The position numbers and the translations under genes were made by a program. A stretch of 64,000 nt of DNA from Escherichia phage vB_EcoS_I14. The DNA is taken from sequence record PP892525.1. One strand, 5' to 3'. The notes under the pieces were generated by a model. The model made no database searches and was not told the origin of the DNA. It was given only the letters and a program-made list of their open reading frames with translations. Each line of letters opens with the position of its first letter. Position 1 is the stretch's first letter. Shown in pieces: positions 42,434 through 56,001 of the stretch.

Positions 42434-42437
42434 TATT

Positions 42438-42515: not shown

Positions 42516-42521
42516 AATAAT

Positions 42522-42599: not shown

Positions 42600-42619
42600 T
42601 TTTAATAGAGGATTTCGAA

Positions 42620-42787: not shown

Positions 42788-42788
42788 T

Positions 42789-42867: not shown

Positions 42868-42871
42868 AATT

Positions 42872-42945
42872 GCTCGGTTAGTTTAATGGGAGAACCCCGT
42901 CTTTACACGGCGGTTGCGATAGTTCGATTCTATCACCGAGTACCA
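42872..42945 (+). tRNA. tRNA-Val(TAC)
   Basis: Acceptor GCTCGGT/ACCGAGT; anticodon stem CCGTC/GGCGG, loop TTTACAC; T-arm GATAG-TTCGATT-CTATC; CCA encoded. Confidence 0.7.
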
Positions 42946-42964
42946 ATTAACTCAAAATAAGGAA

Positions 42965-43324
42965 TTGCAAATGCAATTATCAAGCAAGGTTCAAGGCTAT
43001 TTCGGTCATGTAACAATGGAGTTCGCTATCTCTAAAGGTTGGGACTTCGAACAAGATTTAGCTGAGTTCTACAAAGATATTGATCTGAACGTACCATATA
43101 TGGGACTTTCTACTGGTCAGGAGATCACAGAAGCCGATGTATTCAAGGCAAGTCAAGGTGAGGTAACACCTAGTTTTGCCGAGTTCTGGTTAGGCATTAC
43201 GTTAAAAGAAGATGCACCAGATAGTGGTGTACTAATGTCTAGTTTGCACTCTGGAAGTTCCGATTACCTTTTCATTAGCGATGTTAAGGAAATACAAGAA
43301 GTCTGCAAAAATGTACTTGCTTGA
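42965..43324 (+). CDS. hypothetical protein
   Basis: 119 aa ORF. Confidence 0.5.
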   Translation: MQMQLSSKVQGYFGHVTMEFAISKGWDFEQDLAEFYKDIDLNVPYMGLSTGQEITEADVFKASQGEVTPSFAEFWLGITLKEDAPDSGVLMSSLHSGSSDYLFISDVKEIQEVCKNVLA

Positions 43325-43345
43325 TGCTTAATTTCTTGTTATAAT
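43317..43345 (+). promoter_or_regulatory. sigma70-type promoter preceding an ORF-free segment and tRNA-Ala
   Basis: TTGCTT-17bp-TATAAT; -35 overlaps the end of CDS 42965-43324. Confidence 0.7.
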
Positions 43346-43583
43346 ATTTATATAAATTGATGAGGATTTCTCCTCATCATAGTTCACTAAGGTATTAGCT
43401 CGACCTAGGACTGGCTGCCAAAAAGCACGATCCCTACGATTCGGGAGAAGTTCTAGATTAGTCCACTAGATTCAGCGGCAACTGAATAGTGTATTGGGTT
43501 TGCGAGATGACGCGGTTCCTTCCGCTCGAAGCGAAGGTGCTGTAGTTACGCCGAGCTAATAGCCTTAGTAAACTAAAGAATTT

Positions 43584-43657
43584 GGGGATATAGTTTAATG
43601 GTAGAACATCTGCTTTGCACGCAGAAGACGAGGGTTCAACTCCCTCTTTCTCCACCA
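43584..43657 (+). tRNA. tRNA-Ala(TGC)
   Basis: Acceptor GGGGATA/TTTCTCC with G3-U70; anticodon stem TCTGC/GCAGA, loop TTTGCAC; T-arm GAGGG-TTCAACT-CCCTC; CCA encoded. Confidence 0.7.
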
Positions 43658-43663
43658 AAATTC

Positions 43664-43748
43664 GGGGCTATGCTGGAACTGGTAGACAATACGGCCTTAG
43701 ATTCCGTAGCTTAAATGCGTGGGAGTTCGAGTCTCCCTAGCCCCACCA
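43664..43748 (+). tRNA. tRNA-Leu(TAG), type II
   Basis: Perfect acceptor GGGGCTA/TAGCCCC; anticodon loop CTTAGAT; long variable arm; T-loop GTTCGAGTC; CCA encoded. Confidence 0.7.
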
Positions 43749-43764
43749 ACTTATAGGGTAATGT

Positions 43765-44349
43765 ATGCAGTTTGTACCAATAAAAGATGCACCAGGGTAT
43801 TTAGTAAATGAAACAGGGGATGTGTTATCTACATTTACTAATAAAATTTTATCAAGATATATAGTTGATGGATACCCTGCTGTAAAATTACAGATAAATG
43901 GTAAGCAAACTTCGGTACTTATACACCGAATTATTTCTCATGTATTTGGGGACTTATATAATCTATTTGACCCTGAATTAGAAGTAGATCACAAGGATAG
44001 AGATAGGCTGAATCTATCTAAAGATAATCTTCAAGTTTTATCAAAAATAGAACATCAGAAGAAAACTAATAAAGATAATGGATGGTCTGATAGTAGAGTA
44101 CCTTGCCCCTTATGTGGAAATCTAATGCTTCAGAGATCAGTAACATGTACAAATTGTAAGCCAAAACCTACAGGAAAGTTAATAAAACCAGAGTTGTCCT
44201 TAGAAGACATAACTGAAAAGGTTTTATTAATGGGGTGGGTTAAGGCAGCTAAAGATCTAGAAGTATCAGAGTCCACTTTACGTAGACGATATACTAAACT
44301 AACCGGATTAAGCCCAAAAGTATTAACAGAACAACGGAAAAGCAAATAG
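43765..44349 (+). CDS. HNH homing endonuclease
   Basis: 194 aa; HNH motif VDHKDRDRLNLSKDNLQVL; C-terminal HTH-like tail; within tRNA cluster. Confidence 0.75.
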   Translation: MQFVPIKDAPGYLVNETGDVLSTFTNKILSRYIVDGYPAVKLQINGKQTSVLIHRIISHVFGDLYNLFDPELEVDHKDRDRLNLSKDNLQVLSKIEHQKKTNKDNGWSDSRVPCPLCGNLMLQRSVTCTNCKPKPTGKLIKPELSLEDITEKVLLMGWVKAAKDLEVSESTLRRRYTKLTGLSPKVLTEQRKSK

Positions 44350-44429
44350 ACTGGTGACTAAACCCGATTGGAAATCGGTTGAGTGGTAGCAATACCGCCT
44401 TATGGGTTCAACTCCCATCTTTTCCGCCA
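44336..44429 (+). tRNA. tRNA-Ser(GGA), type II
   Basis: Perfect acceptor GGAAAAG/CTTTTCC; anticodon loop TTGGAAA; long variable arm; CCA encoded; 5' end overlaps the stop of the HNH gene. Confidence 0.65.
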
Positions 44430-44441
44430 AACAATTTATAT

Positions 44442-44536
44442 GGTAGGTCAATCCAACGGCTGGCGCTGGACTCCGACTTGAAATCGGTTGATCGTAGTGA
44501 TACGGTGTAAGGGTTCGATCCCCTTACCTACCTCCA
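44442..44536 (+). tRNA. tRNA-Ser(TGA), type II
   Basis: Perfect acceptor GGTAGGT/ACCTACC; anticodon loop CTTGAAA; T-arm AAGGG-TTCGATC-CCCTT; CCA encoded; unusually long (95 nt). Confidence 0.6.
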
Positions 44537-44902
44537 AATCTTGAAGTATGCCGGAATCGGTAGACGGGGCTGCCTAAAAGGTTTATAGGGAACATCCACT
44601 CCCTGCAACATACCTCATAAAGCGGCTGAGATAAATGGTCTATCTCGTGAAGGTTCAAGTCCTTCTGCTTCTTGATACATCTATGGCTCAAAGTGTAACG
44701 GTGCTATTTGATGCTCTTGGTAAGACTTCCCCGACATGCGTTCGGGAGTAAGCTGCTAAGGCTAGGGTAGAAGAGTTTCTGAGAGCCGCCACAATTGAAA
44801 ATTCGTACTCGTCTTGAGCTGCGTGCAATAGGAGATAACTTGATTAGTATTCTAGAACATGCTAATTGAGGAAGGTTTCGCTAACCCTGCGAGTTTTCAA
44901 TT

Positions 44903-44979
44903 GTGGCTATATCATAATTGGTTAATGATCCTGATTGTGAATCAGGCCTATGTGGATTCGAATTCCACTAGCCACCCCA
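44903..44979 (+). tRNA. tRNA-His(GTG)
   Basis: Perfect acceptor GTGGCTA/TAGCCAC; anticodon stem CCTGA/TCAGG, loop TTGTGAA; T-arm GTGGA-TTCGAAT-TCCAC; CCA encoded. Confidence 0.75.
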
Positions 44980-45003
44980 AATTAACTTAAATAGGAAATA
45001 AAT

Positions 45004-45198
45004 ATGGCTGATTTCTGCAAACAATGCTCCATTGATATGTGGGGCAGAGATACTGGTGATCTTTCTGGTTTGATTACAGAAGCTGAAGTTAAAGAAGGCT
45101 ACGGTGCTGTTGTGGTTTGCGAAGGATGCGGAGTTATTCGAGTAGATCATGAAGGCAAACGTTTGGAAGAATCTGAGCCAACAACGATTTTTCCGTAG
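45004..45198 (+). CDS. hypothetical zinc-ribbon-like small protein
   Basis: 64 aa; CKQC...CEGCG. Confidence 0.45.
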   Translation: MADFCKQCSIDMWGRDTGDLSGLITEAEVKEGYGAVVVCEGCGVIRVDHEGKRLEESEPTTIFP

Positions 45199-45214
45199 AA
45201 TAAGATGAAATTAT

Positions 45215-45290
45215 TGGGATGTAGATCAATTGGCAGATCGTCGGTTTCTGACATCGAAGGTTCCACGTTCGATCCGTGGCATCCCAGCCA
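45215..45290 (+). tRNA. tRNA-Gln(CTG)
   Basis: Acceptor TGGGATG/CATCCCA (U1-A72); D-stem GATC/GATC; anticodon loop TTCTGAC; T-arm CCACG-TTCGATC-CGTGG; CCA encoded. Confidence 0.75.
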
Positions 45291-45296
45291 AACAAT

Positions 45297-45371
45297 TGGA
45301 AAGTAGTGTAATGGTTAGCACTGGAGATTTTGAATCTCTTAGTTAGGGTTCGAATCCCTACTTTCCTGCCA
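45297..45371 (+). tRNA. tRNA-Gln(TTG), tentative
   Basis: Acceptor TGGAAAG/CTTTCCT with 1-72 mismatch; anticodon stem GGAGA/TCTCT, loop TTTTGAA; T-arm TAGGG-TTCGAAT-CCCTA; CCA encoded. Confidence 0.6.
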
Positions 45372-45377
45372 ATTTAC

Positions 45378-45452
45378 GCGTGATTAGTTCAGTGGCTAGA
45401 ATAACTGGCTTCCAACCAGTAGACACGAGTTCGACTCTCGTATCCCGCACCA
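45378..45452 (+). tRNA. tRNA-Gly(TCC)
   Basis: Acceptor GCGTGAT/ATCCCGC (one mismatch); anticodon stem ACTGG/CCAGT, loop CTTCCAA; T-arm ACGAG-TTCGACT-CTCGT; CCA encoded. Confidence 0.65.
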
Positions 45453-45469
45453 ATTTTTAAGGAAACGTT

Positions 45470-45691
45470 ATGCACGTTTTTGAATTTCGTAATAAAAGTA
45501 CCGATAAACGAGTTATTGTTATTGGAGAAACATACCGAGCATACGAACAAACTGACGGCTCTGTTATCTTGAATGACGAGAAAGGAGGTTTTAGCTTTTA
45601 TCCCAAAGAAACTTACGAAGAATTTCGTACAAAGTTTCTTCTACCAGACTGGCTAGAAGTAGCGCAGCAACGAGAACCCGAAGATGGCTGA
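45470..45691 (+). CDS. hypothetical protein
   Basis: 73 aa ORF. Confidence 0.45.
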   Translation: MHVFEFRNKSTDKRVIVIGETYRAYEQTDGSVILNDEKGGFSFYPKETYEEFRTKFLLPDWLEVAQQREPEDG

Positions 45692-45848
45692 TAACCTAAA
45701 AGTCAAGATCGATAAACAAAAGAAACGTGTAGAAGTAGAGATTGGTGAAGAACGTGTAGCCTTCACCTTTGAATTTCTACAACAAATGGCAATGACAGTT
45801 ATGACTGATAAGTCTCCTGTTATTGAAAAAGAAATCCCGTTAAAATAA
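45684..45848 (+). CDS. hypothetical small protein
   Basis: 54 codons; ATGGCTGA overlap with upstream stop; not in the ORF track. Confidence 0.3.
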   Translation: MADNLKVKIDKQKKRVEVEIGEERVAFTFEFLQQMAMTVMTDKSPVIEKEIPLK

Positions 45849-45856
45849 CGGGATCT

Positions 45857-45943
45857 GCTGGGTTGGCAGAATGGTTGAATGCACCTGATTTGTAATCAGG
45901 AGGAGTAATCCCGTTGCAGGTTCGAATCCTGTGCCCAGCACCA
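45857..45943 (+). tRNA. tRNA with TGT anticodon (Thr) and long variable region, tentative
   Basis: Acceptor GCTGGGT/GCCCAGC; anticodon stem CCTGA/TCAGG, loop TTTGTAA; T-arm GCAGG-TTCGAAT-CCTGT; CCA encoded; 87 nt. Confidence 0.55.
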
Positions 45944-45957
45944 ACTTAAGGACTAGT

Positions 45958-46125
45958 ATGTTTAAACTGTTAGTAGTTATCTGGTATAGTCAATCAAATA
46001 GAGCGAATACCTCCCACGTTATAGACTTTAATACTAAAAATGAAGCTGAAAAAGCATACGCTAATTTAATAGAACGTAATAAAGAATCTCGTAGTATAGT
46101 TTATGAAGTGACTAAACTTTATTAA
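45958..46125 (+). CDS. hypothetical small protein
   Basis: ATG 45958 after AAGGA; the track ORF starts at 45931 inside a tRNA. Confidence 0.35.
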   Translation: MFKLLVVIWYSQSNRANTSHVIDFNTKNEAEKAYANLIERNKESRSIVYEVTKLY

Positions 46126-46133
46126 AAATTCAT

Positions 46134-46162
46134 TTGCCTTCTCTCTTATTTCTTGTTATAAT
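46134..46162 (+). promoter_or_regulatory. sigma70-type early promoter
   Basis: TTGCCT-17bp-TATAAT, then TATAAATTAATGAGAGGG. Confidence 0.7.
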
Positions 46163-46192
46163 ATTTATATAAATTAATGAGAGGGAAACCAA

Positions 46193-46486
46193 ATGAAACG
46201 TTATATTTCTGTTATGTTCCAAACTGGTGGTCAACGCTATACATATGAATTTCCATCTTCTTGGAAAATCAAAGAAGGTGATCAAGTAGTTGTACTAACA
46301 CCTCGTGATGGGTACAAGGTAGTAACGGTTAAGCAAGTCTTCCCAAAAGATTATACGCCATCTAAGTCTATTAATTATAAAATGATTCATGGTGTAGTTC
46401 GTCAAGTACCACGAGCGGAAGTCGAAATCAAAGTAGATAAAGATGGTAAACTTAAATATACCTCTTGCTTAGAAGAGTTGCTATAA
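46193..46486 (+). CDS. hypothetical protein
   Basis: 97 aa ORF after promoter 46134-46162. Confidence 0.5.
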   Translation: MKRYISVMFQTGGQRYTYEFPSSWKIKEGDQVVVLTPRDGYKVVTVKQVFPKDYTPSKSINYKMIHGVVRQVPRAEVEIKVDKDGKLKYTSCLEELL

Positions 46487-46692
46487 TGAGGATTACTTTT
46501 ACAGAAAAGATCATGAGTAATGGTGTTATGATCATTACTGCATGGGATGGTAATCAGTGGTGTAGTGTCTCAGGTATTAAGCCTGAAGAACAAACACTAG
46601 ATAATATCTCAAAGATTAAGCGAAGAATGACAGAACGTGCACGACTTCCAGGTGCACCTAGAAATGGCAAACGTTCTGCTGCAAAATGTTAA
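46486..46692 (+). CDS. hypothetical protein
   Basis: ATG 46486; the track ORF starts at TTG 46465. Confidence 0.4.
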   Translation: MRITFTEKIMSNGVMIITAWDGNQWCSVSGIKPEEQTLDNISKIKRRMTERARLPGAPRNGKRSAAKC

Positions 46693-46693
46693 T

Positions 46694-46770
46694 GCTTCGG
46701 TAGCTTAGCGATCTAAAGCACTCGGCTGATAACCGAGAGATCGGGGGTTTAAATCCCTCCCGGAGTACCA
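46694..46770 (+). tRNA. tRNA-Ile(GAT)
   Basis: Acceptor GCTTCGG/CCGGAGT; D-stem GCTT/AAGC; anticodon stem CTCGG/CCGAG, loop CTGATAA; CCA encoded. Confidence 0.7.
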
Positions 46771-46866
46771 AATTTAGGAATTAAGACTATGCGTCCAGGA
46801 AAGTTTAAAAAAGCTAATTGGTCTAAAGAGTATAAAGAATACTTACTTAGTCTAGTAAAACATAAT

Positions 46867-46942
46867 AGTTAGTTGGCAGAGTGGTTATGCACCTCCTTCA
46901 TACGGAGCGACTACAGTGGTTCAAATCCACTACTAACTACCA
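46867..46942 (+). tRNA. tRNA with CAT anticodon (Met or Ile2), tentative
   Basis: Perfect acceptor AGTTAGT/ACTAACT; anticodon loop TTCATAC; T-arm AGTGG-TTCAAAT-CCACT; CCA encoded. Confidence 0.6.
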
Positions 46943-46979: not shown

Positions 46980-47174
46980 ATGTTAACAATTAAAATAATG
47001 TCAGCCAAGAATGGGGAACAGATTCATACAGGCAAAAGTGTAAGCTTTAATCCTAGAAATAAAAGACTGGCTATAGTTGGAGTAGACCAAGCCATCTTTT
47101 TAAAAGAAGATGAAGTAGCATATGTCATGAACCAAACTGGTAAGACAGTTTCCGTATACTATGGAAAAGTATAA
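46980..47174 (+). CDS. hypothetical protein
   Basis: 64 aa ORF. Confidence 0.4.
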   Translation: MLTIKIMSAKNGEQIHTGKSVSFNPRNKRLAIVGVDQAIFLKEDEVAYVMNQTGKTVSVYYGKV

Positions 47175-47216
47175 AGAATAAATAGCTGAGCCAAATTCTA
47201 ACATCGGGGAGATCTA

Positions 47217-47585
47217 ATGAAAGCATATCAAAACCTTAAATCTGGCGTAATTAATATTGTTCATAATAATCAGATCATTCAGCTATACTCCGACAACGGT
47301 GAACTTAAACAGAAAGTTCTAGTTGAAGATCTAGAAGGTATCACACCACAATTCGATCCTGAAGCCTTCCGTGAAGTTAAGGTGGAAGTCGCCCCTCAAA
47401 TCGAAGGTGGTCAGCACCTAAATGTCAATGTGTTAAGCCGTGATCAGCTTTTGGATGCGCAGAAACACCCTGAAAAATATCCTCAGTTGACCATCCGTGT
47501 CTCTGGCTACGCTGTTCGATTTAATGCACTGACTCGTGAACAACAGAACGACGTTATTAGTCGTACATTTACTCAGGCGATGTAA
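47217..47585 (+). CDS. hypothetical protein
   Basis: 122 aa ORF. Confidence 0.5.
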
Positions 47586-47666
47586 TGGGGTTTGGATACG
47601 ATTTCTCCCAGCTACGCAAGGTAGTCGAGCAAACTCCGTTTATCTCCCAAGTTTTAGGAGAAATGT

Positions 47667-47972
47667 GTGGATCGAGCATTAAGACGTCATCACAGGCAAC
47701 GTGTAAAGAACAACCGCAAGAAGTACTGGACAGTCTTTCCACATGAAGAAAGCCCTAAGCGGTTAGGTATTATCACTACTACTCCTTGCATCTGTTCTTG
47801 TTGGATGTGTGGGAACCCTCGCAAGTACTATAAGAATAGTAAAGCAGGCATGAAAACCTCGGAGATCAGGAAAATGGAAGCGATGATTGCGGGCATCACC
47901 TATACTGGTGGTATTTCAAATGATGAATTTGATGGCTTTGTGTCGTTCGAAGATGAACGCCCCGATCTGTAA
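47667..47972 (+). CDS. hypothetical basic Cys-containing protein
   Basis: 101 aa ORF followed by a terminator hairpin. Confidence 0.45.
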   Translation: MDRALRRHHRQRVKNNRKKYWTVFPHEESPKRLGIITTTPCICSCWMCGNPRKYYKNSKAGMKTSEIRKMEAMIAGITYTGGISNDEFDGFVSFEDERPDL

Positions 47973-47980
47973 TTAATAAC

Positions 47981-48018
47981 AAACCCCAGCTATTGAATAA
48001 GTAGTCTGGGGTTTTTCT
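47981..48018 (+). terminator. intrinsic terminator
   Basis: AAACCCCAG...CTGGGGTTT hairpin followed by TTTT. Confidence 0.6.
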
Positions 48019-48093
48019 GTATAAAGGTACATAATATATGTATAATAAAATTCATCCACATTAGGTTAATTTAAAAGACTTAATGGAGGTAAT

Positions 48094-48441
48094 ATGAGCC
48101 GTACTTATCGTAAACAATCTGGTGATCAGTGGTGGAAGTCTAAAGAACACTTCTCTCAAGAATATTCTTTCTTCAAAGAAAATGGCTACTGGATTCGTGT
48201 TATTTATCCCAAATCCTGGGACGACATCAAAAAAGAAATGAAGGAAGCAACCATTCGTAATGAGAAAAAGGATGGTTATAACTGGAATTCCATTAGTAAG
48301 AATGTTAAGTGGCACTCTAATAAAATGGTTCGTCAAGGGAATCGTCAAGAACTTCACCGCGTGATGAAAGATCCAGAAAATTACGACTATAATCGCGATC
48401 ATGACATGCGTAAGCGTGGGTTATGGTGGTGCTATGACTAA
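48094..48441 (+). CDS. hypothetical protein
   Basis: 115 aa Trp-rich ORF. Confidence 0.5.
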   Translation: MSRTYRKQSGDQWWKSKEHFSQEYSFFKENGYWIRVIYPKSWDDIKKEMKEATIRNEKKDGYNWNSISKNVKWHSNKMVRQGNRQELHRVMKDPENYDYNRDHDMRKRGLWWCYD

Positions 48442-48458
48442 ATTCTGAAATAATTCAT

Positions 48459-48487
48459 TTGCTAAACCTCTCTTTTCTTGCTATAAT
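48459..48487 (+). promoter_or_regulatory. sigma70-type early promoter
   Basis: TTGCTA-17bp-TATAAT, then TATAAATTGATGAGAGAGG. Confidence 0.7.
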
Positions 48488-48517
48488 ATGTTTATAAATT
48501 GATGAGAGAGGTTTGAA

Positions 48518-48799
48518 ATGAAAACTCGTCTAGACTGTGCTGTTCATGTTCTTGAGCATGATGTTGCTGGAACCTGTATGTCTTACCACGAAGCAGGTCG
48601 TTTAATTAAAGAACGTGTGGCAGATGTGTGTGGATTGAAGATTACTGCTGAGGAAGCTGATGATCTTTTAGGTCAAGCACTGGAGAAAACTGAAATGTTC
48701 CTCTGCGATTCTTGTTCTTGGTGGGGTGAAGCTCACGAACGTTCTTTCAACGATTATGATGTATGTCGTGATTGTAGTGGGGAGGATGAAGATGAATAA
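48518..48799 (+). CDS. hypothetical Cys-rich acidic protein
   Basis: 93 aa ORF after promoter 48459-48487. Confidence 0.5.
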   Translation: MKTRLDCAVHVLEHDVAGTCMSYHEAGRLIKERVADVCGLKITAEEADDLLGQALEKTEMFLCDSCSWWGEAHERSFNDYDVCRDCSGEDEDE

Positions 48800-49091
48800 G
48801 TTTATTATTGCACTGATGATCTCCGCAGTTAGTTTCGGTTCTCTGGCGTCTACCAAAGTTTCTATGAAAAATGGTAATGTTAAAGTTCAACAGAACGGCA
48901 TTATTACCGAGTATGGTAAAGTTCGTGATGTTAAGGAACGTAATGGTAAAGTAGAAATATATACTAATAAAAACTTCTCTACTCCAGCCGTTACTATTAG
49001 CAAACGCGGTGAAATAACCACTCAACGTACTAATAGCTCCAGTTCTTTTACTTGTCGTTATGATTGCGACTTTGAAGGTGAAGATGAATAA
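48792..49091 (+). CDS. hypothetical secreted protein
   Basis: Signal-peptide-like MNKFIIALMISAVSFGSLAS from ATG 48792; the track ORF starts at 48726. Confidence 0.5.
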   Translation: MNKFIIALMISAVSFGSLASTKVSMKNGNVKVQQNGIITEYGKVRDVKERNGKVEIYTNKNFSTPAVTISKRGEITTQRTNSSSSFTCRYDCDFEGEDE

Positions 49092-49479
49092 TTTAGACCC
49101 TAGAATTAAATTTGCAATTACAGAAATCCAAGATCAAATTGATGAGGACTTCACCGTTTGGTCAAGGTCTGGTAATGGAGAATATTGCCAGCTTTATAGC
49201 ATGAAAATGGGTATCTCAATTGAGCTTAATATCAACTCTGAAGGTAGAGTAGAAGCCCAACCCATGTTCAGTGTTCCAGGCTTCTCTGGATTTGTTGCAG
49301 GTATAAAATTGTGTCTACCAAATAACCATCTTCATCGAGTTATTTGTCAGCTAGAGACTATTAAGCATTTCTTGCCAGAAGATAACATTAATGACTACTA
49401 CCACGAAGTTGTAGCAGCTCATATGATGAAAGAATCTAAACGTCGGAGAGAAGAACGTGAAAAGACTAAACATCAATAG
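49084..49479 (+). CDS. hypothetical protein
   Basis: ATG 49084 in the same GAAGATGAATAA junction as the previous gene; the track ORF starts at 49060. Confidence 0.45.
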   Translation: MNNLDPRIKFAITEIQDQIDEDFTVWSRSGNGEYCQLYSMKMGISIELNINSEGRVEAQPMFSVPGFSGFVAGIKLCLPNNHLHRVICQLETIKHFLPEDNINDYYHEVVAAHMMKESKRRREEREKTKHQ

Positions 49480-49753
49480 CACGGTGCAGATTCCAGCAAC
49501 TAAGGATGTTTTAACATTCCTACGAAGTGAAAACGCTCAGTTTTGGCATGATCATGTTGTAAAGAACGGTAGTACTCCAGATGTAGTTGCCTTTGCCAAA
49601 AAACGTATCGAGGAGTATAAAGATCCAGAGATTAAAGATGGTACGATAACTATGCAGTTATGGGTAGCCATGCAAACCTTTGGCCCCACAATGCGTTTAG
49701 GAAATATCCCATTATTTACAAATATTTTAATTAATGAAAAGGATCTGAAATGA
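49457..49753 (+). CDS. hypothetical protein
   Basis: 98 aa ORF. Confidence 0.45.
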   Translation: MKRLNINSTVQIPATKDVLTFLRSENAQFWHDHVVKNGSTPDVVAFAKKRIEEYKDPEIKDGTITMQLWVAMQTFGPTMRLGNIPLFTNILINEKDLK

Positions 49754-50034
49754 TTATCTCTCCATTTGCTCTTTGGTTCGTCATTGGATCTATAGTAGCT
49801 ATTTACAGCTTGGTTGATGATCTGTATATTTCTAAGAATAAAGATGTAATATTATACGTTATACATAAAACTCGACCGTTAGATCTGCCTCCTCTTGATG
49901 ATAAAACATTACTCAGATGTGCTAGATCTATGATATTTATTGTAGATATTCTTCTAGGCCCAACATCTGTGTTTTTCTTTTATAGAAAGACTCGTAATAT
50001 GAAAAAATTTAAAGCTGAAATGCAGAATACCTAA
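49750..50034 (+). CDS. hypothetical membrane protein
   Basis: 94 aa with hydrophobic segments. Confidence 0.45.
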   Translation: MIISPFALWFVIGSIVAIYSLVDDLYISKNKDVILYVIHKTRPLDLPPLDDKTLLRCARSMIFIVDILLGPTSVFFFYRKTRNMKKFKAEMQNT

Positions 50035-50143
50035 AGAACTCGCGTAGGACCGAGTTGCGTCACCTGCAACTGTTACGGATAAGGGAGTCGTGCCCCTTAG
50101 TGCGGTAAGTGGTGAGGTGGCTGCTAGCCCTAACTGGAGATAA

Positions 50144-50489
50144 TATGACTACATTACTAATTCTTGTTACAACTTGGTTTTTAATCGGTGCTGGATATGC
50201 GATAGCTATTATTAGACATCTGGACGAATATTCTGCTGAATGGTTTGTTAAGTATCTACGTATTGATGATCAAGAACAGAAGTTTAAAGATGAAAAGCAG
50301 AAAAAAGCAGTAAATAATATGACAGCCAAAGAATGCTTGTTCTACATGCGTATTGTAGGGTTCTTTGGACTATTAGTTGCTGGCCCAATTGGTTCTACCA
50401 TTGCCCCATATAAAGAAACAGTTGCTGACATCAAATTGTGGAGAAATGCAGGGGTACTACGCAAAGCTAGAGAAACTAATATTACATAA
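50144..50489 (+). CDS. hypothetical membrane protein
   Basis: ATG 50144 after GGAGATAAT; the track ORF starts at 50109. Confidence 0.45.
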
Positions 50490-50533
50490 GATTGATACTA
50501 AATCAACTTACTAGCAAAAGCAAATAATGACAA

Positions 50534-50570
50534 AGCCCAGCCTGCACTTTTGCGACTGGGCTATTTTTAT
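50534..50570 (+). terminator. terminator-like hairpin
   Basis: AGCCCAG...CTGGGCT stem with a long loop, followed by ATTTTTAT. Confidence 0.5.
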
Positions 50571-50583
50571 AATAAAATTTTAG

Positions 50584-50612
50584 TTGCTTAGATGCCCAAA
50601 TTTTTGTATAAT
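50584..50612 (+). promoter_or_regulatory. sigma70-type early promoter
   Basis: TTGCTT-17bp-TATAAT. Confidence 0.7.
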
Positions 50613-50643
50613 ATGTTTATAGATTGAGGCAAGAGGATTAAAT

Positions 50644-51342
50644 ATGAGGATCATTTCTAAATTCGCCGATGTATATGATTTGCAGAACAGTTTATTTGAT
50701 GCAGATCGTGTTTGGGAGCGTAAAACTGAAGAGCTACTGGTTAAAGTAACCGATGATGCAGAAAAGAACATTGTGCATACTCGCCAGGTATTTCGTGATG
50801 GCTCACTATCCTTTCGTGGTGATTTCGAATATTTTGTAAACCCACTATTTGTTGCAGGTGAAGTTTACTGGTTGCACGAGCTGTACTGCTGGCATCCAGC
50901 ATTTAGCTTCAAAACGTTTAATCTCGACACTATGTTCGATAAAATGGAAGAGATGGGATTACATGCTCGCTCTTACTTAATGGATAAGAGTCGCGGAGAT
51001 GTTCGTGAAACAATGCGTGATTTGCTCGCTGAAGCAAAACCTAAAGCAGAACGTATCTTATCCGAACTGCGTGTACCGATTGCATATGTGAAAGGTATTA
51101 AGAAGAACGATAACGATGATGTTCGTAACTTCGTGATTCAGACTAATATTCGTTTCCATCAGTCAGGTATTCCGTGGCAGGAAATTGAAAGTAACTTATA
51201 CCGTTTACACCAAGTTCTCGAACAGTATATCTTCGGTGTACTAGGAACTGGTGAGCCTGATATGATTAAAGTATCAGATAAAGACAGGTTAGCAGCGCAT
51301 GGATTTGATACAAAAACTTCTTTCAGGAATATGGCACGGTAA
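50644..51342 (+). CDS. hypothetical protein
   Basis: 232 aa ORF after promoter 50584-50612. Confidence 0.5.
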   Translation: MRIISKFADVYDLQNSLFDADRVWERKTEELLVKVTDDAEKNIVHTRQVFRDGSLSFRGDFEYFVNPLFVAGEVYWLHELYCWHPAFSFKTFNLDTMFDKMEEMGLHARSYLMDKSRGDVRETMRDLLAEAKPKAERILSELRVPIAYVKGIKKNDNDDVRNFVIQTNIRFHQSGIPWQEIESNLYRLHQVLEQYIFGVLGTGEPDMIKVSDKDRLAAHGFDTKTSFRNMAR

Positions 51343-51748
51343 GTGGTATATCCTGGGAGCAGGTCTAGCGATAGGCATCGGGTTCGGTGCGTATCACTTA
51401 GTAAATAAAGTGGAGACTTTAGCGGGAGATCTTGCGGTAGCTACTAAAAAGATTTCCTCTCTAGAGACTTCCCTTAATAAGGTGAAAGCTGAAAGTGAAC
51501 TTCGTGAGACTAGAATGAATCAGTATTTCACAGTGAATAATATTTCGCAAGCAGATCTAGACAAAAAGATTAAGCAGTTAGATAAAGCTCTTAGTCGACA
51601 AGATATTATAGCTGCAAAGCCTGGATTGGTAACATTAATTGCTAAAAAGCAGAGTAAAGAGTTCGAGGAAAGATTAGCGTGTTTAACTGGAAACTTGGAA
51701 TACTGCTCGCAGCCGCAATCACAATCACAGGCTGTGCAGAAGAAATAA
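51299..51748 (+). CDS. membrane-anchored coiled-coil protein (candidate i-spanin-like)
   Basis: 149 aa; N-terminal TM WYILGAGLAIGIGFGAYHLV then coiled coil; 3' end overlaps the lipoprotein ORF. Confidence 0.4.
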   Translation: MDLIQKLLSGIWHGKWYILGAGLAIGIGFGAYHLVNKVETLAGDLAVATKKISSLETSLNKVKAESELRETRMNQYFTVNNISQADLDKKIKQLDKALSRQDIIAAKPGLVTLIAKKQSKEFEERLACLTGNLEYCSQPQSQSQAVQKK

Positions 51749-52032
51749 AACCAGAGCCATCTCATGAGTTAAAGCAAGCTCATGTAGACTGGCCTAAAGG
51801 ACTTCAACCTTGTAGCTTTGACTTTAAGTTTGAAAAGAAATTAGCTACAAATGGAGAAGATGGCGTAGTAGTTGTTGTACCATACAAAGATTGGAATGCA
51901 AAAGCAAAATGTGAGGAAGCAGTTTACTCTTACATTTCACGACTGACTGGTATGGTTTGCTTCTATCGCCAAGATTTACAAGAAAAACGTTGCTTAGTTT
52001 ACTATCCACCAATTAACAATAGGAAAGATTAA
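51679..52032 (+). CDS. lipoprotein (candidate o-spanin-like)
   Basis: 117 aa; signal peptide with lipobox ITGC; start embedded in the 3' end of 51299-51748. Confidence 0.45.
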   Translation: MFNWKLGILLAAAITITGCAEEIKPEPSHELKQAHVDWPKGLQPCSFDFKFEKKLATNGEDGVVVVVPYKDWNAKAKCEEAVYSYISRLTGMVCFYRQDLQEKRCLVYYPPINNRKD

Positions 52033-52784
52033 TGTCAGTATTAGTCGGTTTACATGGTGAAGCTGGTTCGGGAAAAGATACCGTTGCAAAATTAATTATC
52101 GATTGGTGTAATGACACGTATCCAACATGTTTATCACGTCGTTATAGTTTTGCTAAGCCCGTTTATGAACTTGCATCCGTAATCCTCGGTGTAACTCCGG
52201 AGTTTCTAGGAGAGCGCAGGGGAAAAGAGATTGACCAATGGTTTACTGTCACACAATCTCAATTGGAGCGAGCCAGAGATGTGTGGTTTAAGTACGGTAT
52301 CGATAAGTTTGAAGACTTCTCGTACATTTGGCCTATTTTTGAGGAAAAGTATCTTAATCCTCAACAACTTATCTCAGAGAATAAAGAAGACGGACTTTAT
52401 AGTTTATTTATTTCTCCGAGAAAAATGTTACAGCTCGTAGGGACAGAGCTAGGAAGGCAGCTGGTGCATGAACGCATTTGGCTCATAATTCTGGAGCAAT
52501 CCATCGCTAAAGACGACCCAGATGTCGCCGTAATAACAGATGTTAGATTCCCCAATGAAGGAGAGTTACTCAGAGAAACAAACCATTTAGATATGGATTC
52601 TTTGATAGTAAATGTAGTACCCGCTGAGCAGAAGTTCACTATTAAATCAGATCATCCATCTGAAAGTGGTATTCCTGCAAAATATATTACGCACGAATTA
52701 GTTAATAAATTCGATGGTATCAATAACCTTAAACTAGAAGTTTATAACTTCTGTGACTTAGAGCTAGAACCACTAGTTGGATAA
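52032..52784 (+). CDS. dnk: deoxynucleoside monophosphate kinase
   Basis: 250 aa; P-loop GEAGSGKDT; size matches T5 dNMP kinase. Confidence 0.75.
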   Translation: MSVLVGLHGEAGSGKDTVAKLIIDWCNDTYPTCLSRRYSFAKPVYELASVILGVTPEFLGERRGKEIDQWFTVTQSQLERARDVWFKYGIDKFEDFSYIWPIFEEKYLNPQQLISENKEDGLYSLFISPRKMLQLVGTELGRQLVHERIWLIILEQSIAKDDPDVAVITDVRFPNEGELLRETNHLDMDSLIVNVVPAEQKFTIKSDHPSESGIPAKYITHELVNKFDGINNLKLEVYNFCDLELEPLVG

Positions 52785-52796
52785 TCAAGGATCGCT

Positions 52797-53396
52797 ATGA
52801 CTAATAAAAAAGAAGAAAAGACTAACCTGTTTCACTCCATTCGCCAATCTAATGAGTATACCTTTTTCTTTGATGAAGAATTAGGTCCACCTGATGAATA
52901 CCGTGATTTATCAATGGTACTTATGCAGGCAAATGAGGACGACGAAATTAATCTGATGATTAATGGCCCGGGTGGTTATGTTGATACTGCTGCACAGTTA
53001 TCTAACTTAATTGCTAATTGCCGTGGAACAGTTATAGGACATCTGGTTGGTCCTAGTGCTTCTGCTTACTGCACAATTTTTCTATCCTGTCATGGATGGG
53101 TAGTACACCCACATGCTACGCTAATGGGCCACACGTTCTCTGGTGGGTTCTGTGAGAAAGGTCAGGAAATCAAGAAAGCCTATGAATCTTACAACAAGTT
53201 TGTAGAAGATATGATGCTAGATGTCTACTATCCCTTTTTCTCAATAGATGAAATCGACGAGATGGTAAAAGACAACAAAAATATCTATCTAGATAGCAAG
53301 GAAATCCATAAGCGTATTGAAATCTTGGCGAAATATCGATCTGAGCAATATAATAAAGCCCAGTTACCTCAATCCGAGGAGCACAACGAAGAGTAA
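52797..53396 (+). CDS. ClpP-like serine peptidase family protein
   Basis: 199 aa; INGPGGYVDTAAQL resembles the ClpP INSPGG motif; candidate Ser in GPSASAY. Confidence 0.5.
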   Translation: MTNKKEEKTNLFHSIRQSNEYTFFFDEELGPPDEYRDLSMVLMQANEDDEINLMINGPGGYVDTAAQLSNLIANCRGTVIGHLVGPSASAYCTIFLSCHGWVVHPHATLMGHTFSGGFCEKGQEIKKAYESYNKFVEDMMLDVYYPFFSIDEIDEMVKDNKNIYLDSKEIHKRIEILAKYRSEQYNKAQLPQSEEHNEE

Positions 53397-53405
53397 GTAA
53401 TTTTA

Positions 53406-53437
53406 AGCCAGGGTTTAACGACCCTGGCTTTTCTTTT
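53406..53437 (+). terminator. intrinsic terminator after the ClpP-like gene
   Basis: AGCCAGGG-TTTAACGA-CCCTGGCT hairpin followed by TTTTCTTTT. Confidence 0.75.
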
Positions 53438-53499
53438 ATCTAAAATTCTTCTTGACAACGACAAAATTTTGTGCTCCAAAGAAAATCTTTAAAAACACA

Positions 53500-53528
53500 T
53501 TGTAATTTTCCTCCAAAATTAGTATAAT
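53500..53528 (+). promoter_or_regulatory. sigma70-type promoter upstream of holin
   Basis: TTGTAA-17bp-TATAAT; a TTGACA hexamer also lies at 53452-53457. Confidence 0.55.
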
Positions 53529-53552
53529 GGTACTGGTTAGAGGAGGTTACAA

Positions 53553-54209
53553 TTGGAAAAGTTCTTACAATTATTAACGGTACTGCTCCAAGAAGCGAAA
53601 GATCCAGCATCGCTTCTTAAACGTCTGCTAACTATCTTAGTTGCTGTCATTATTTTCTTATTTGTTAGTAATACTAGCGAGGTGATGTCATTCTTAAAGA
53701 CTTTCTCCACGTCTGCGGTTCTACAGGATGTTCAAACTCAAAGGATAGATAACTTTCCTAATGTAGCTAGAGAAAAGAGCATGGTACTCTTTTCTCAAAC
53801 GGGTGCGGATGCTGTTTTTGTAGTCAAGTATAAACCCGATGCCATTAATGATTATTCTAACATTATTGCATGGGAAAGCAATGCGCAATTAGATAGGGCT
53901 GACTTGGCCGATAAAGCAGTAAATAAAACGTCTGAGCTATACAGACGTCACTTAGAGGGCTTTAACTACGCATCGGATTTAAGTGTAAGAGTAAATAAAT
54001 ATACGGGGTTAAATATACCTGCGTTTAAGAACGTTACTTTTAATTACATATACACTTGTCCATATTTCAATCTAAACAATATCTATGCTGGATATATTGG
54101 TATTGCTTGGAAAGATAATCCTGTAGATGCAGCCGATTCTGAGAAATTTAAGGAATATTTAACAAAGCTCTGTTCTCCACAACAGAGATCTTTAGGTAGA
54201 TCAATATGA
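53553..54209 (+). CDS. holin-like membrane protein
   Basis: 218 aa; TM segment LLTILVAVIIFLFV; immediately upstream of endolysin; apparent TTG start after AGGAGG. Confidence 0.6.
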   Translation: MEKFLQLLTVLLQEAKDPASLLKRLLTILVAVIIFLFVSNTSEVMSFLKTFSTSAVLQDVQTQRIDNFPNVAREKSMVLFSQTGADAVFVVKYKPDAINDYSNIIAWESNAQLDRADLADKAVNKTSELYRRHLEGFNYASDLSVRVNKYTGLNIPAFKNVTFNYIYTCPYFNLNNIYAGYIGIAWKDNPVDAADSEKFKEYLTKLCSPQQRSLGRSI

Positions 54210-54619
54210 GTTTTAAATTTGGTAAAAATAGCGAAAAACAATTAGCTACCGTTAAGCCAGAGCTACAAAAAGTAGCTCGTAGAGCTTTAGAATTATCTCC
54301 ATATGATTTCACGATCGTACAGGGTATTCGTACAGTAGCACAAAGTGCCCAGAATATTGCTAATGGTACTTCATTTTTAAAAGATCCTAGTAAAAGCAAG
54401 CATATTACTGGGGATGCTCTTGATTTTGCTCCATACATTAATGGCAAGATTGATTGGAATGACTTAGAAGCATTTTGGGCAGTTAAAAAGGCTTTTGAAC
54501 AAGCAGGTAAAGAACTAGGCATTAAACTTCGTTTTGGTGCTGATTGGAATGCTTCGGGAGATTATCACGATGAAATAAAACGTGGTACCTATGATGGCGG
54601 TCATGTCGAACTAGTTTAA
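54206..54619 (+). CDS. endolysin, L-alanyl-D-glutamate peptidase type
   Basis: 137 aa, the size of T5 endolysin; His/Asp-rich C-terminus; followed by a strong terminator. Confidence 0.8.
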   Translation: MSFKFGKNSEKQLATVKPELQKVARRALELSPYDFTIVQGIRTVAQSAQNIANGTSFLKDPSKSKHITGDALDFAPYINGKIDWNDLEAFWAVKKAFEQAGKELGIKLRFGADWNASGDYHDEIKRGTYDGGHVELV

Positions 54620-54628
54620 TTAATAACT

Positions 54629-54653
54629 GAGGCGGGAATATTCCCGCCTTTTT
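54629..54653 (+). terminator. intrinsic terminator after endolysin
   Basis: GGCGGGA-ATAT-TCCCGCC hairpin followed by TTTTT. Confidence 0.8.
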
Positions 54654-54696
54654 AGGCAAAGGGGGCTTTAATAATTTTTGAAGATAGGAGAAAGCC

Positions 54697-55113
54697 ATGT
54701 TTGCAGAACTATTCACTATGATGCTGCTAGGTATCTGGAAAATAAGTCTAGTAGTATTCGTTTTAATGATAGTCTTTACTATCCTTGCATTAACTACCCG
54801 AAATAGCTTGTTAATAAAGGTTATTCACGGACTAGAGTATATAATTATGGGTTCATTCGGCGTTTGTAAATGCAATTGCCATAGAGATACGAAATATTGT
54901 TGGTTATGGATGGAACTAGAGAATCCTATATCCATAGCTTTGGCTGTTTCATTCGGCATGATTCTTATGGCCCTTACTCTAGCATTAATACCTTTGATGT
55001 TAGCTGGGGGAGTTACAGCGTATTTCACCCTTTTCTCCCCGATACTTATGTACTCAATTTACCCAATAACTATGTATCTAGTTAGGAAAAGATTTATACA
55101 CGCAGAAGATTAA
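54697..55113 (+). CDS. hypothetical multi-pass membrane protein
   Basis: 138 aa with several hydrophobic segments. Confidence 0.5.
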   Translation: MFAELFTMMLLGIWKISLVVFVLMIVFTILALTTRNSLLIKVIHGLEYIIMGSFGVCKCNCHRDTKYCWLWMELENPISIALAVSFGMILMALTLALIPLMLAGGVTAYFTLFSPILMYSIYPITMYLVRKRFIHAED

Positions 55114-55126
55114 GATAAAAAAGTAT

Positions 55127-55155
55127 TTGACTTTTAGCCCTAGTTATTATATAAT
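55127..55155 (+). promoter_or_regulatory. sigma70-type early promoter
   Basis: TTGACT-17bp-TATAAT, then CATAAATTAGTTAAGAGAGG. Confidence 0.7.
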
Positions 55156-55188
55156 ATATACATAAATTAGTTAAGAGAGGTATATATT

Positions 55189-55620
55189 ATGTCTGATCGT
55201 TTCTATACTCAAATGGCGGAACATTTTCGTATACCACATTACGAGCTAAACATTGCACTCCGTGATCATGACTCTCCTGAGTACAAAAAGCTCGAAAAGA
55301 AAGCGGAAAAATCTATTGATACAAAGGTAGGTGCATCTATGTCTAAGGGCAAAAAGTTAACTCGTCTTGATCTTAATAAAATTTTAACTGAACTTTTGGG
55401 TACTGATATTGAAGGTGCTAAATTACCACTTCTTGTACTAGAGACTATGATTAAAAAGGTCAAAAATAAAGAGTATAAAAAGGTAGAAGTCCCAGAAGGC
55501 AGATTAAAGGCTCCTTATCAGGAAGCATTAACCGAGTGTTTGGGTGTAAATCTTGATCTGAGCACCGCAACCGTAAAAACTATGAAAAACTTCTTAGAGG
55601 CCATTAATAACTATGAGTAA
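55189..55620 (+). CDS. hypothetical protein
   Basis: 143 aa ORF after promoter 55127-55155. Confidence 0.5.
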   Translation: MSDRFYTQMAEHFRIPHYELNIALRDHDSPEYKKLEKKAEKSIDTKVGASMSKGKKLTRLDLNKILTELLGTDIEGAKLPLLVLETMIKKVKNKEYKKVEVPEGRLKAPYQEALTECLGVNLDLSTATVKTMKNFLEAINNYE

Positions 55621-55903
55621 ATTAGTATATTTATTAAAAGGTTCCACTTGCAATCCTTGCAAACTTTTCGAGCCAGTGTTTGATAAAGTAGTCAGTGACT
55701 ATAATTTGGAAATCCATAAAGAGACTGATAATACAGAATTAATGCAGAAATTTGGTGTGCGCCAAGTTCCTGTAGTAGTTCTGGCGGATCGTTTACCTAA
55801 TGGTCGAGTAGAAGCTAATCATATTTTGATTGGACGTCAGCTTCGTAAAGAAACTATGCACGAAGCTATTAAAAATTTCCTGGAGGATAATCCAGAGGAC
55901 TAA
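55613..55903 (+). CDS. thioredoxin/glutaredoxin-like protein
   Basis: 96 aa; CNPC redox motif near the N-terminus. Confidence 0.6.
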   Translation: MSKLVYLLKGSTCNPCKLFEPVFDKVVSDYNLEIHKETDNTELMQKFGVRQVPVVVLADRLPNGRVEANHILIGRQLRKETMHEAIKNFLEDNPED

Positions 55904-55909
55904 TAAACA

Positions 55910-55940
55910 AAGCCTGATCTTAGCTGATCAGGCTTTTATT
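55910..55940 (+). terminator. intrinsic terminator after the thioredoxin-like gene
   Basis: AAGCCTGATC-TTAGC-TGATCAGGCTT hairpin followed by TTTATTTT. Confidence 0.75.
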
Positions 55941-55944
55941 TTAC

Positions 55945-55973
55945 TTGCTTTTTGCTAAAAATCTTGGTATAAT
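55945..55973 (+). promoter_or_regulatory. sigma70-type early promoter
   Basis: TTGCTT-17bp-TATAAT, then TATAAATTGATAGGAG. Confidence 0.7.
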
Positions 55974-56001
55974 ACTTATATAAATTGATAGGAGTATTAC
56001 G

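What the first reader, a model, noticed from the sequence alone, without database searches (positions are those of the whole stretch)
51299..52032. Overlapped membrane-protein/lipoprotein gene pair resembling embedded spanins, 1.5 kb from holin-endolysin
ORF 51299-51748 has one N-terminal TM helix followed by coiled coil. ORF 51679-52032 starts inside its 3' end in another frame and encodes a lipoprotein with lipobox ITGC. This matches the genetic architecture of overlapped i-spanin/o-spanin pairs, although the lipoprotein is Cys-rich rather than Pro-rich and is larger than typical o-spanins.
Basis: partly seen in the sequence, partly recalled or inferred. Interest (0 to 1): 0.5.

Follow-up and report, generated by a model that had tools for sequence, protein, structure and literature searches.

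The report
Known T5-family overlapped spanin gene pair
These two overlapping genes are the already catalogued spanin pair of T5-like phages, an inner-membrane protein and an outer-membrane lipoprotein that together break the host's outer membrane at the end of infection, so the finding is correct but ordinary.

Summary
ORF 51299-51748 (149 aa) has an N-terminal membrane helix followed by a helical region with heptad repeats. ORF 51679-52032 (117 aa, GTG start) overlaps it by 70 nt and encodes a lipoprotein with lipobox ITGC and Ala at +2. The window is a T5-like phage, 98% identical in DNA to E. coli phages AZ23 and AZ21.

The two proteins match PHROG 739 and PHROG 812, both named 'Rz-like spanin'. 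They are orthologues of T5.045 and T5.044, and many GenBank records annotate the pair as i-spanin and o-spanin. Kongari et al. 2018 already define a 'T5 family' of overlapped spanins with the same 70-bp overlap. Their EPS7 i-spanin differs from this one at 6 of 149 residues.

That is a structured o-spanin whose two essential C-terminal cysteines align with C94 and C105 here. One correction: the architecture is 'overlapped', not 'embedded'.

Small differences from T4 are an extra Cys pair in the o-spanin and a C-terminal CxTGNxxxC tail on the i-spanin.

Verdict: already known, low interest.

The parts
51299..51748 (+). i-spanin gene (149 aa). It has a short cytoplasmic N-terminus, a membrane helix at about residues 17-35, a helical periplasmic domain with heptad repeats, the conserved AKPGLV motif, and a C-terminal CLTGNLEYC tail (C128, C136).
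   Evidence: PHROG 739 'Rz-like spanin', E 8.2e-37. It differs at 6 of 149 residues from the EPS7 i-spanin catalogued by Kongari 2018. BLASTP to T4 PseT.3 gives E 8e-6. Alignment A2. Hydropathy and heptads. AF2 secondary structure.
51679..52032 (+). o-spanin gene (117 aa, GTG start). Signal peptide with lipobox ITGC, lipid Cys19, Ala at +2. The mature part is 99 aa with C45, C78, C94 and C105.
   Evidence: PHROG 812 'Rz-like spanin', E 3.5e-30. BLASTP to T4 PseT.2 gives E 3e-7. C19, C94 and C105 are invariant in 65 of 65 relatives. The AF2 model has mean pLDDT 81, with a hairpin at 50-66 and a helix at 69-96. Foldseek hits in BFVD are o-spanins and PseT.2.
51679..51748 (+). The 70-nt dual-coding overlap. 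It encodes the i-spanin tail (A-CLTGNLEYCSQPQSQSQAVQKK) in one frame and the o-spanin signal peptide and lipobox in the +2/-1 frame.
   Evidence: Direct reading. Lower divergence than the flanks. The overlap is retained in Klebsiella relatives (88 nt) and Providencia relatives (49 nt).
51666..51672 (+). Shine-Dalgarno-like GAGGAAA upstream of the o-spanin GTG start.
   Evidence: Sequence.
53553..54209 (+). T-type holin. It is the first-step lysis partner and lies in a separate transcription unit.
   Evidence: Pfam Phage_holin_T, E 2.8e-112. PHROG 860.
54206..54619 (+). Endolysin, the second-step lysis partner.
   Evidence: PHROG 465 endolysin, E 2.2e-54. Peptidase_M15_4 scores just under the Pfam cut-off. 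The orthologue is T5 lys, T5.040.
53405..53430 (+). Terminator-like hairpin (11-bp stem followed by a T run). It closes the unit that contains the spanin genes, dnk and the Clp-like protease gene.
   Evidence: T5 annotates a terminator and a promoter at the same place.

Best explanation
The two genes encode the two-component spanin of a T5-like phage.

Step by step:
1. The 149-aa product sits in the inner membrane through its N-terminal helix and extends a helical, partly coiled-coil domain into the periplasm.
2. The 117-aa product is exported, lipidated on Cys19 and sorted by Lol to the inner leaflet of the outer membrane, because residue +2 is Ala.
3. The C-terminal parts of the two proteins bind each other, so the complex spans the periplasm and is held in place by the peptidoglycan mesh.
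4. The T-type holin (53553-54209) releases the endolysin (54206-54619), which degrades the wall.
5. The freed complexes then collapse and fuse the inner and outer membranes, which completes lysis.

Shown here: gene structure, the targeting signals, membership of the T5 spanin family and homology to T4 PseT.3 and PseT.2.

Inferred from homology: complex formation, disulfide chemistry and membrane fusion. C94 and C105 correspond to the two essential Cys of T4 PseT.2.
For: - Family models: PHROG 739 and 812, both 'Rz-like spanin'.
- Orthology: T5.045 and T5.044 are annotated as spanins similar to PseT.3 and PseT.2.
- Literature: the T5 family, its overlapped architecture and the 70-bp overlap are catalogued in PMC6139136.
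- Homology to T4: BLASTP E-values of 3e-7 (PseT.2) and 8e-6 (PseT.3), with shared motifs AKPGLV and C-Y-Y-R-x-x-L-x-E-x-x-C.
- Experiment on the T4 homologues: T4 pseT.3 and pseT.2 complement a lambda RzamRz1am lysis defect, and both PseT.2 Cys are essential (PMC6139136).
- Conservation across 65 relatives: the lipobox Cys is invariant, Asp never occurs at +2, and C94 and C105 are invariant.
- Synteny: the order i-spanin, o-spanin, dnk, Clp-like protease, holin, endolysin is kept in Klebsiella and Providencia Demerecviridae.
- Structure: the AF2 o-spanin model matches predicted o-spanins and PseT.2 in BFVD.
Against: - No experiment on this phage or on T5 itself was found.
- The local Pfam and NCBIfam copies give no hit for either protein.
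- The membrane-helix hydropathy of 1.55 is just below the classical 1.6 threshold.
- The spanin genes are not in the holin-endolysin transcription unit. The same is true of T4.
Confidence: 0.93

Rival explanations
1. The lipoprotein is a superinfection-exclusion or receptor-masking lipoprotein, like T5 Llp, which blocks FhuA, or Cor of phi80/N15. On this reading the upstream membrane protein is unrelated.
For: T5-like phages are known to encode such a lipoprotein (own knowledge). The gene lies among early-region genes, not next to the holin.
Against: - All 67 relatives found carry the same precomputed Pfam family, PF26831. Wherever a source names them, the name is spanin, Rz1 or outer-membrane lipoprotein, apart from one JGI pilus-biogenesis label.
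- The protein is homologous to T4 PseT.2, which was tested as an o-spanin.
- It is always paired with, and usually overlaps, the PseT.3-like gene.
- No PDB sequence matches it below E 0.76.
- T5 Llp is encoded next to the receptor-binding protein gene in the late region, not here (own knowledge).
Confidence: 0.03
2. The overlap is a chance out-of-frame ORF, and only one of the two ORFs is a real gene.
For: Gene callers often omit one of the pair. Many records annotate only one of them, or a truncated o-spanin.
Against: - Both ORFs hit independent family models at E <= 1e-30.
- Both remain open, with the lipobox intact, at 36-46% identity.
- In IrisVonRoten a homing endonuclease gene separates the two genes and both are kept full-length.
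- Most of each gene lies outside the overlap (380 nt and 284 nt).
Confidence: 0.01
3. The pair is a spanin-like complex with a different or added role, for example lysis-inhibition signalling or envelope tethering during infection, rather than the final outer-membrane disruption.
For: The genes are transcribed with early-type genes (dnk, Clp-like protease) and are separated from the holin-endolysin unit by a terminator. The holin is T4 T-type, and T4 uses periplasmic signalling for lysis inhibition (own knowledge).
Against: T4 also places pseT.3 and pseT.2 far from genes t and e, yet they act as true spanins in complementation. Nothing in the sequences points to another activity.
Confidence: 0.03

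Closest known systems
T5-family two-component spanins: T5.045/T5.044, and the EPS7, SPC35 and Stitch pairs (Kongari et al. 2018, PMC6139136)
   Same: - Same lengths in EPS7 and Stitch (149 and 117 aa; the T5 and SPC35 i-spanins are 147 aa), 70-nt overlap and lipobox.
- Same flanking gene order: T5.047-like gene upstream, then dnk, Clp-like protease, holin and lys downstream.
- The i-spanin is 96% identical to that of EPS7.
- The o-spanin is 92% identical to that of T5.
   Different: - The start codon is GTG here and ATG in T5.
- T5 has the HNH endonuclease gene hegF inserted just upstream, and its i-spanin has a different N-terminus (MRKWFVDLVWNNKM...).
- Neither difference is functionally notable.
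T4 PseT.3 / PseT.2 spanins
   Same: - Homologous proteins.
- Same domain order and the AKPGLV motif in the i-spanin.
- The W-P motif and the two C-terminal Cys of the o-spanin (T4 C87 and C98, aligning with C94 and C105 here).
- A structured beta-alpha o-spanin that is not Pro-rich.
- The genes lie away from the holin and endolysin genes.
   Different: - In T4 the two genes share only 4 nt, and Kongari et al. class the pair as separated.
- PseT.3 has no Cys, whereas this i-spanin has a roughly 25-aa C-terminal extension with C128 and C136.
- This o-spanin has an extra Cys pair, C45 and C78, where T4-like proteins have Tyr or Trp and Trp.
Lambda Rz / Rz1
   Same: Same functional class and topology: a type II inner-membrane protein plus an outer-membrane lipoprotein. 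The o-spanin gene starts inside the i-spanin gene in another frame.
   Different: - Rz1 is fully embedded in Rz, short (40 aa mature), Pro-rich and unstructured.
- No sequence similarity was detected.
- The Cys pattern differs (PMC6139136).
P2 LysB / LysC
   Same: Overlapped rather than embedded architecture.
   Different: It belongs to a different sequence family in the Kongari classification.

Membership tests
Two-component spanin (functional class) | An i-spanin with a single N-terminal transmembrane domain and a periplasmic C-terminal domain | tested here: met
   The only strongly hydrophobic segment is residues 17-35 (KD19 1.55). Basic residues on the N-terminal side are few (K6, K15). 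The rest of the protein is polar and helical. This is a prediction only.
Two-component spanin (functional class) | A helical, coiled-coil periplasmic domain in the i-spanin | tested here: met
   Hydrophobic residues fill the a/d heptad positions across residues 31-62. AF2 places helices at 2-79 and 84-98, at low confidence. Kongari 2018 lists a coiled coil at 33-75 in EPS7.
Two-component spanin (functional class) | An o-spanin with an SPase II signal and lipobox, and no Asp at +2, so it is sorted to the outer membrane | tested here: met
   MFNWKLGILLAAAITITG|C, with Ala at +2. The Cys is invariant and +2 is never Asp in 65 relatives.
Two-component spanin (functional class) | The o-spanin gene is embedded in, overlaps or directly follows the i-spanin gene | tested here: met
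   The overlap is 70 nt, in the +2/-1 frame.
Two-component spanin (functional class) | At least one periplasmic Cys available for homotypic intermolecular disulfides | tested here: met
   There are 2 Cys in the i-spanin and 4 in the mature o-spanin. Whether disulfides actually form was not tested.
Two-component spanin (functional class) | The i-spanin and o-spanin bind each other through their C-termini | not testable with these tools
   Only single-chain prediction is offered, and no coordinates are returned.
Two-component spanin (functional class) | Required for outer-membrane disruption; a null mutant arrests as spherical cells in Mg2+ | not testable with these tools
   No experiment on T5-like spanins was found. 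The T4 homologues complement lambda RzamRz1am.
T5 spanin family (Kongari 2018) / PHROG 739 + PHROG 812 | Significant sequence match of both proteins to the family | tested here: met
   E-values are 8.2e-37 and 3.5e-30, each covering nearly the full profile. Identity is 96% to the EPS7 i-spanin and 92% to the T5 o-spanin.
T5 spanin family (Kongari 2018) / PHROG 739 + PHROG 812 | Overlapped architecture with a 70-bp overlap, upstream of dnk | tested here: met
T4 PseT.2-type o-spanins (precomputed Pfam PF26831 on all relatives) | The conserved W-P motif and two C-terminal Cys spaced by 10 residues (CxYRxxLxExxC) | tested here: met
   W38, P39, C94, Y96, E102 and C105 are invariant in A1. C94 and C105 are invariant in 65 of 65 sequences. 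The window protein itself gave no hit in the local Pfam copy, so the PF26831 label is known only from the relatives' precomputed annotation.
Lambda Rz1-type o-spanins | A short, Pro-rich, unstructured mature peptide embedded wholly within the i-spanin gene | tested here: not met
   The mature part is 99 aa with 7 Pro, and it is predicted to be folded, with pLDDT above 83 for residues 31-110. The gene extends 284 nt beyond the i-spanin stop.

The most novel reading that the evidence does not exclude
T5-type spanins may use a disulfide topology unlike both lambda and T4. The i-spanin carries a conserved C-terminal CxTGNxxxC pair, encoded inside the overlap and kept even when a homing endonuclease gene splits the genes. 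This pair could provide the homotypic covalent dimer link. The extra o-spanin pair, C45 and C78, replaces a Tyr/Trp-Trp pair of T4-like proteins and could act as an intramolecular staple. If so, the requirement for covalent linkage would have moved between subunits within a single homologous family.
Probability: 0.35. Interest if true: 0.25.

Novelty: already known. Interest (0 to 1): 0.08.

Why it matters
It matters little beyond correct annotation. The pair completes the lysis gene set of this phage (holin, endolysin, spanins) and shows that the first-stage reader can recognise spanin architecture from raw sequence.

There is some practical value. Many public T5-like records still label one or both genes 'hypothetical', truncate the o-spanin, or start the i-spanin after its membrane helix.

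The family is also a convenient natural series for asking which cysteines a spanin needs. T4-like phages have 0 + 2, Providencia PR1 has 2 + 2, and T5 and Klebsiella phages have 2 + 4.

Tried and rejected
- Local Pfam-A and NCBIfam scans gave nothing for either protein. The only NCBIfam hits were sub-threshold coiled-coil noise, such as FtsL at 21 bits against a cut-off of 50.
- PDB sequence searches found no relative of either protein.
- Foldseek of the o-spanin model against the PDB found nothing below E 1.9, so no solved structure informs the fold.
- The first single-sequence protein search returned only 5 close relatives. A profile of the T5-, Klebsiella-, Providencia- and T4-type sequences was needed to reach 67.
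- Rfam found no RNA family in 47000-56000.
- I could not measure Cys-Cys distances in the AF2 model because coordinates are not returned. The proposed C45-C78 disulfide therefore rests only on co-occurrence within one clade, which may be a single evolutionary event.
- Literature searches found no experimental work on T5-like spanins.
- The frame column in Kongari's Table S4 could not be interpreted unambiguously, so the frame is stated from direct reading.
- Rejected explanations: an Llp- or Cor-type exclusion lipoprotein, and a chance ORF. See the rival explanations.

Full report
**Observation**

The two ORFs are present exactly as described. ORF 51299-51748 starts with ATG and encodes 149 aa. 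Its only strongly hydrophobic segment is residues 17-35, YILGAGLAIGIGFGAYHLV. The Kyte-Doolittle mean is 1.55, slightly under 1.6 because the segment is Gly-rich. Residues 31-62 follow with hydrophobic residues at every a/d heptad position. A single-sequence AlphaFold model is weak (mean pLDDT 66) but almost wholly helical up to residue 129, with a disordered tail.

ORF 51679-52032 starts at GTG, the only start codon in that open frame, and GAGGA lies 9 nt upstream. T5 and Salmonella phage GSW6 have ATG at the same position, and the A/G change is silent in the i-spanin frame. This fixes the start.

The N-terminus MFNWKLGILLAAAITITG|CAEE is a lipoprotein signal peptide with lipobox ITGC, lipid Cys19 and Ala at +2. 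The overlap is 70 nt. The second gene starts 380 nt into the first, which is the +2/-1 frame. The holin starts 1,520 nt after the o-spanin stop.

**Context**

The window is a T5-like phage of the Demerecviridae. The 2.2 kb around the finding is 98.4% identical to E. coli phages AZ23 and AZ21, and about 98% identical to many Salmonella T5-like phages. In all, 448 phage records match.

The local gene order is:
- a T5.047-like ORF (50644-51342)
- i-spanin
- o-spanin
- dNMP kinase (52032-52784)
- a Clp-like protease (52797-53396)
- a terminator-like hairpin (53405-53430) and a promoter-like site (53500-53528)
- a T-type holin (53553-54209; Pfam Phage_holin_T, E 2.8e-112)
- the endolysin (54206-54619)

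The T5 reference record annotates the same order, with a terminator and promoter at the same place. The spanin genes are therefore in a transcription unit separate from the holin and endolysin genes.

**Identity**

The two proteins match PHROG 739 (E 8.2e-37) and PHROG 812 (E 3.5e-30). Both families are named 'Rz-like spanin'.

The orthologues in T5 are T5.045 and T5.044. They are annotated 'Rz-like spanin', with notes on similarity to T4 PseT.3 and PseT.2. Many related records call the pair i-spanin and o-spanin.

Kongari et al. 2018 (PMC6139136) define a 'T5 family' of both i- and o-spanins. Its members are T5, EPS7, Stitch, SPC35, AKFV33, FFH1, DT57C, My1, phiR201 and Shivani. They state that the T5 spanins overlap by 70 bp. 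Their tables list EPS7 and Stitch with a 149-aa i-spanin and a 117-aa o-spanin. The EPS7 i-spanin printed in their supplement differs from the window protein at 6 of 149 positions. The finding is therefore already catalogued.

**Why the lipoprotein looks atypical**

This is explained by homology to T4 PseT.2:
- BLASTP gives E 3e-7 for the o-spanin against PseT.2 and E 8e-6 for the i-spanin against PseT.3.
- tblastn of the o-spanin reaches pseT.2 of T4-like phages.
- A profile built from T5-, Klebsiella-, Providencia- and T4-type sequences retrieves 67 protein clusters. All carry the precomputed Pfam family PF26831. Where a source names them, all but one of the names are Rz-like spanin, O-spanin or outer-membrane lipoprotein Rz1; the exception is a JGI pilus-biogenesis label.

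According to Kongari et al., PseT.2 is a structured beta-alpha-beta o-spanin without a Pro-rich region. It has two invariant Cys (C87 and C98), and both are essential. T4 pseT.3 and pseT.2 complement a lambda RzamRz1am lysis defect.

In my alignments those two Cys correspond to C94 and C105 here. Together with the lipid Cys, they are invariant in 65 of 65 sequences, and residue +2 is never Asp.

An AlphaFold model of the o-spanin from this alignment has mean pLDDT 81, and 83-95 for residues 31-110. It shows a beta-hairpin at 50-66 followed by a long helix at 69-96. It matches no solved structure, with a best Foldseek E of 1.9. It does match predicted viral structures annotated as o-spanin, Rz1 or PseT.2.

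**More than chance**

- In a Klebsiella T5-like phage (46% o-spanin identity) and Providencia phage PR1 (36%), both ORFs remain open and overlapping, by 88 nt and 49 nt. Their lipoboxes are ASGC and IVGC.
- Against phage GSW6, the dual-coding stretch has 3 differences in 67 nt. The i-only part has 65 in 335 nt and the o-only part has 40 in 284 nt. This fits constraint in two frames.

**Mechanism**

What is shown here is the gene structure, the targeting signals, family membership and homology to a tested spanin pair.

The rest is inferred from established spanin biology (lambda Rz/Rz1 and T4 PseT.3/PseT.2, PMC6139136):
1. The i-spanin is anchored in the inner membrane.
2. The o-spanin is lipidated and sent to the outer membrane.
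3. The two bind through their C-terminal regions to span the periplasm and form disulfide-linked higher-order complexes.
4. After the holin and endolysin remove the wall, the complexes fuse the two membranes.

No experiment on T5-like spanins was found.

**Differences from T4**

These are minor.
- The i-spanin has a C-terminal extension of about 25 aa that is absent from T4-like PseT.3. It contains CxTGNxxxC (C128 and C136) and is conserved in T5, Klebsiella and Providencia phages. This extension is the part that reads through the o-spanin signal-peptide codons.
- The o-spanin has two further Cys, C45 and C78. They occur together in 6 of 65 clusters, all in the T5/Klebsiella clade. Elsewhere they are replaced by Tyr or Trp at position 45 and mostly Trp at position 78. 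That suggests an intramolecular disulfide replacing an aromatic contact. However, it is one clade and possibly one event, and I could not measure distances in the model.

**Rivals**

An Llp- or Cor-type exclusion lipoprotein is unlikely. The protein is homologous to PseT.2, is always paired with the PseT.3-like gene, and has no PDB sequence relative. A chance ORF is excluded by conservation. A non-lytic role suggested by the early-type operon context is not supported, because T4 has the same separation from its holin and endolysin genes and its pair works as a spanin.

**Verdict**

The feature is already known and of low interest.

Noticed in passing
L013 (Escherichia phage IrisVonRoten, NC_130053.1, 85149-86594); also L012 (SHSML-45) and L010 (H8): A roughly 700-bp homing endonuclease gene sits exactly in the i-spanin/o-spanin overlap and turns the pair into a separated one. 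About 15 nt (CTTGGAATACTG...) occur on both sides of it. The i-spanin keeps both Cys (ACLSGSLEYC) but gains a new tail, GNEHKNK. The o-spanin gains a new ATG start, MRKIK..., with the lipobox intact. The same kind of variant was described for Shivani and phiR201 by Kongari 2018.
   Followed up: partly
window 51299-51342; L002 (T5) 3246-3743: The upstream 232-aa ORF (50644-51342, PHROG 4243, unknown function) overlaps the i-spanin start by 44 nt. In T5 the HNH endonuclease gene hegF is inserted at this junction, and the T5 i-spanin has a different cytoplasmic N-terminus (MRKWFVDLVWNNKM... versus MDLIQKLLSGIWHGKW...).
   Followed up: partly
window 52214-52217: The only GCGC in the dNMP kinase gene (context GAGAGCGCAG) lies 182 nt from the gene start. 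T5 annotates a major single-strand interruption (nick consensus Pu-pGCGC) at the same offset in its dnk gene. The nick site therefore appears to be conserved in this phage.
   Followed up: no
window 54697-55113: A 138-aa ORF lies directly downstream of the endolysin. Hydropathy suggests about four membrane-spanning segments. It matches PHROG 5944 (unknown function) and has no Pfam or NCBIfam hit. Its position next to the holin-endolysin pair makes a lysis-related role, such as antiholin or regulator, worth testing.
   Followed up: no
window 49750-50034 and 50145-50489: Two small ORFs each have two predicted membrane helices. They correspond to T5.049 and T5.048 and lie just upstream of the spanin operon. 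Their function is unknown.
   Followed up: no
window 36304-46942: A cluster of 24 tRNA genes on the + strand, typical of T5-like phages.
   Followed up: no
L003 (Klebsiella phage vB_Kpn_K7_rec11) 3501-3830; L004 (Providencia phage PR1) 3097-3549: Two public annotation errors. The Klebsiella record truncates the o-spanin to 3675-3830 and so loses the signal peptide and lipobox. The PR1 record starts the i-spanin at 3208, after its membrane helix, and labels it 'outer membrane lipoprotein i-spanin'. Many T5-like records also call one or both genes 'hypothetical'.
   Followed up: partly
window 51679-52032: Every relative in the large protein collection carries the precomputed Pfam family PF26831, yet the local Pfam-A copy gave no hit for the window protein. 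This is probably a difference in library versions.
   Followed up: no
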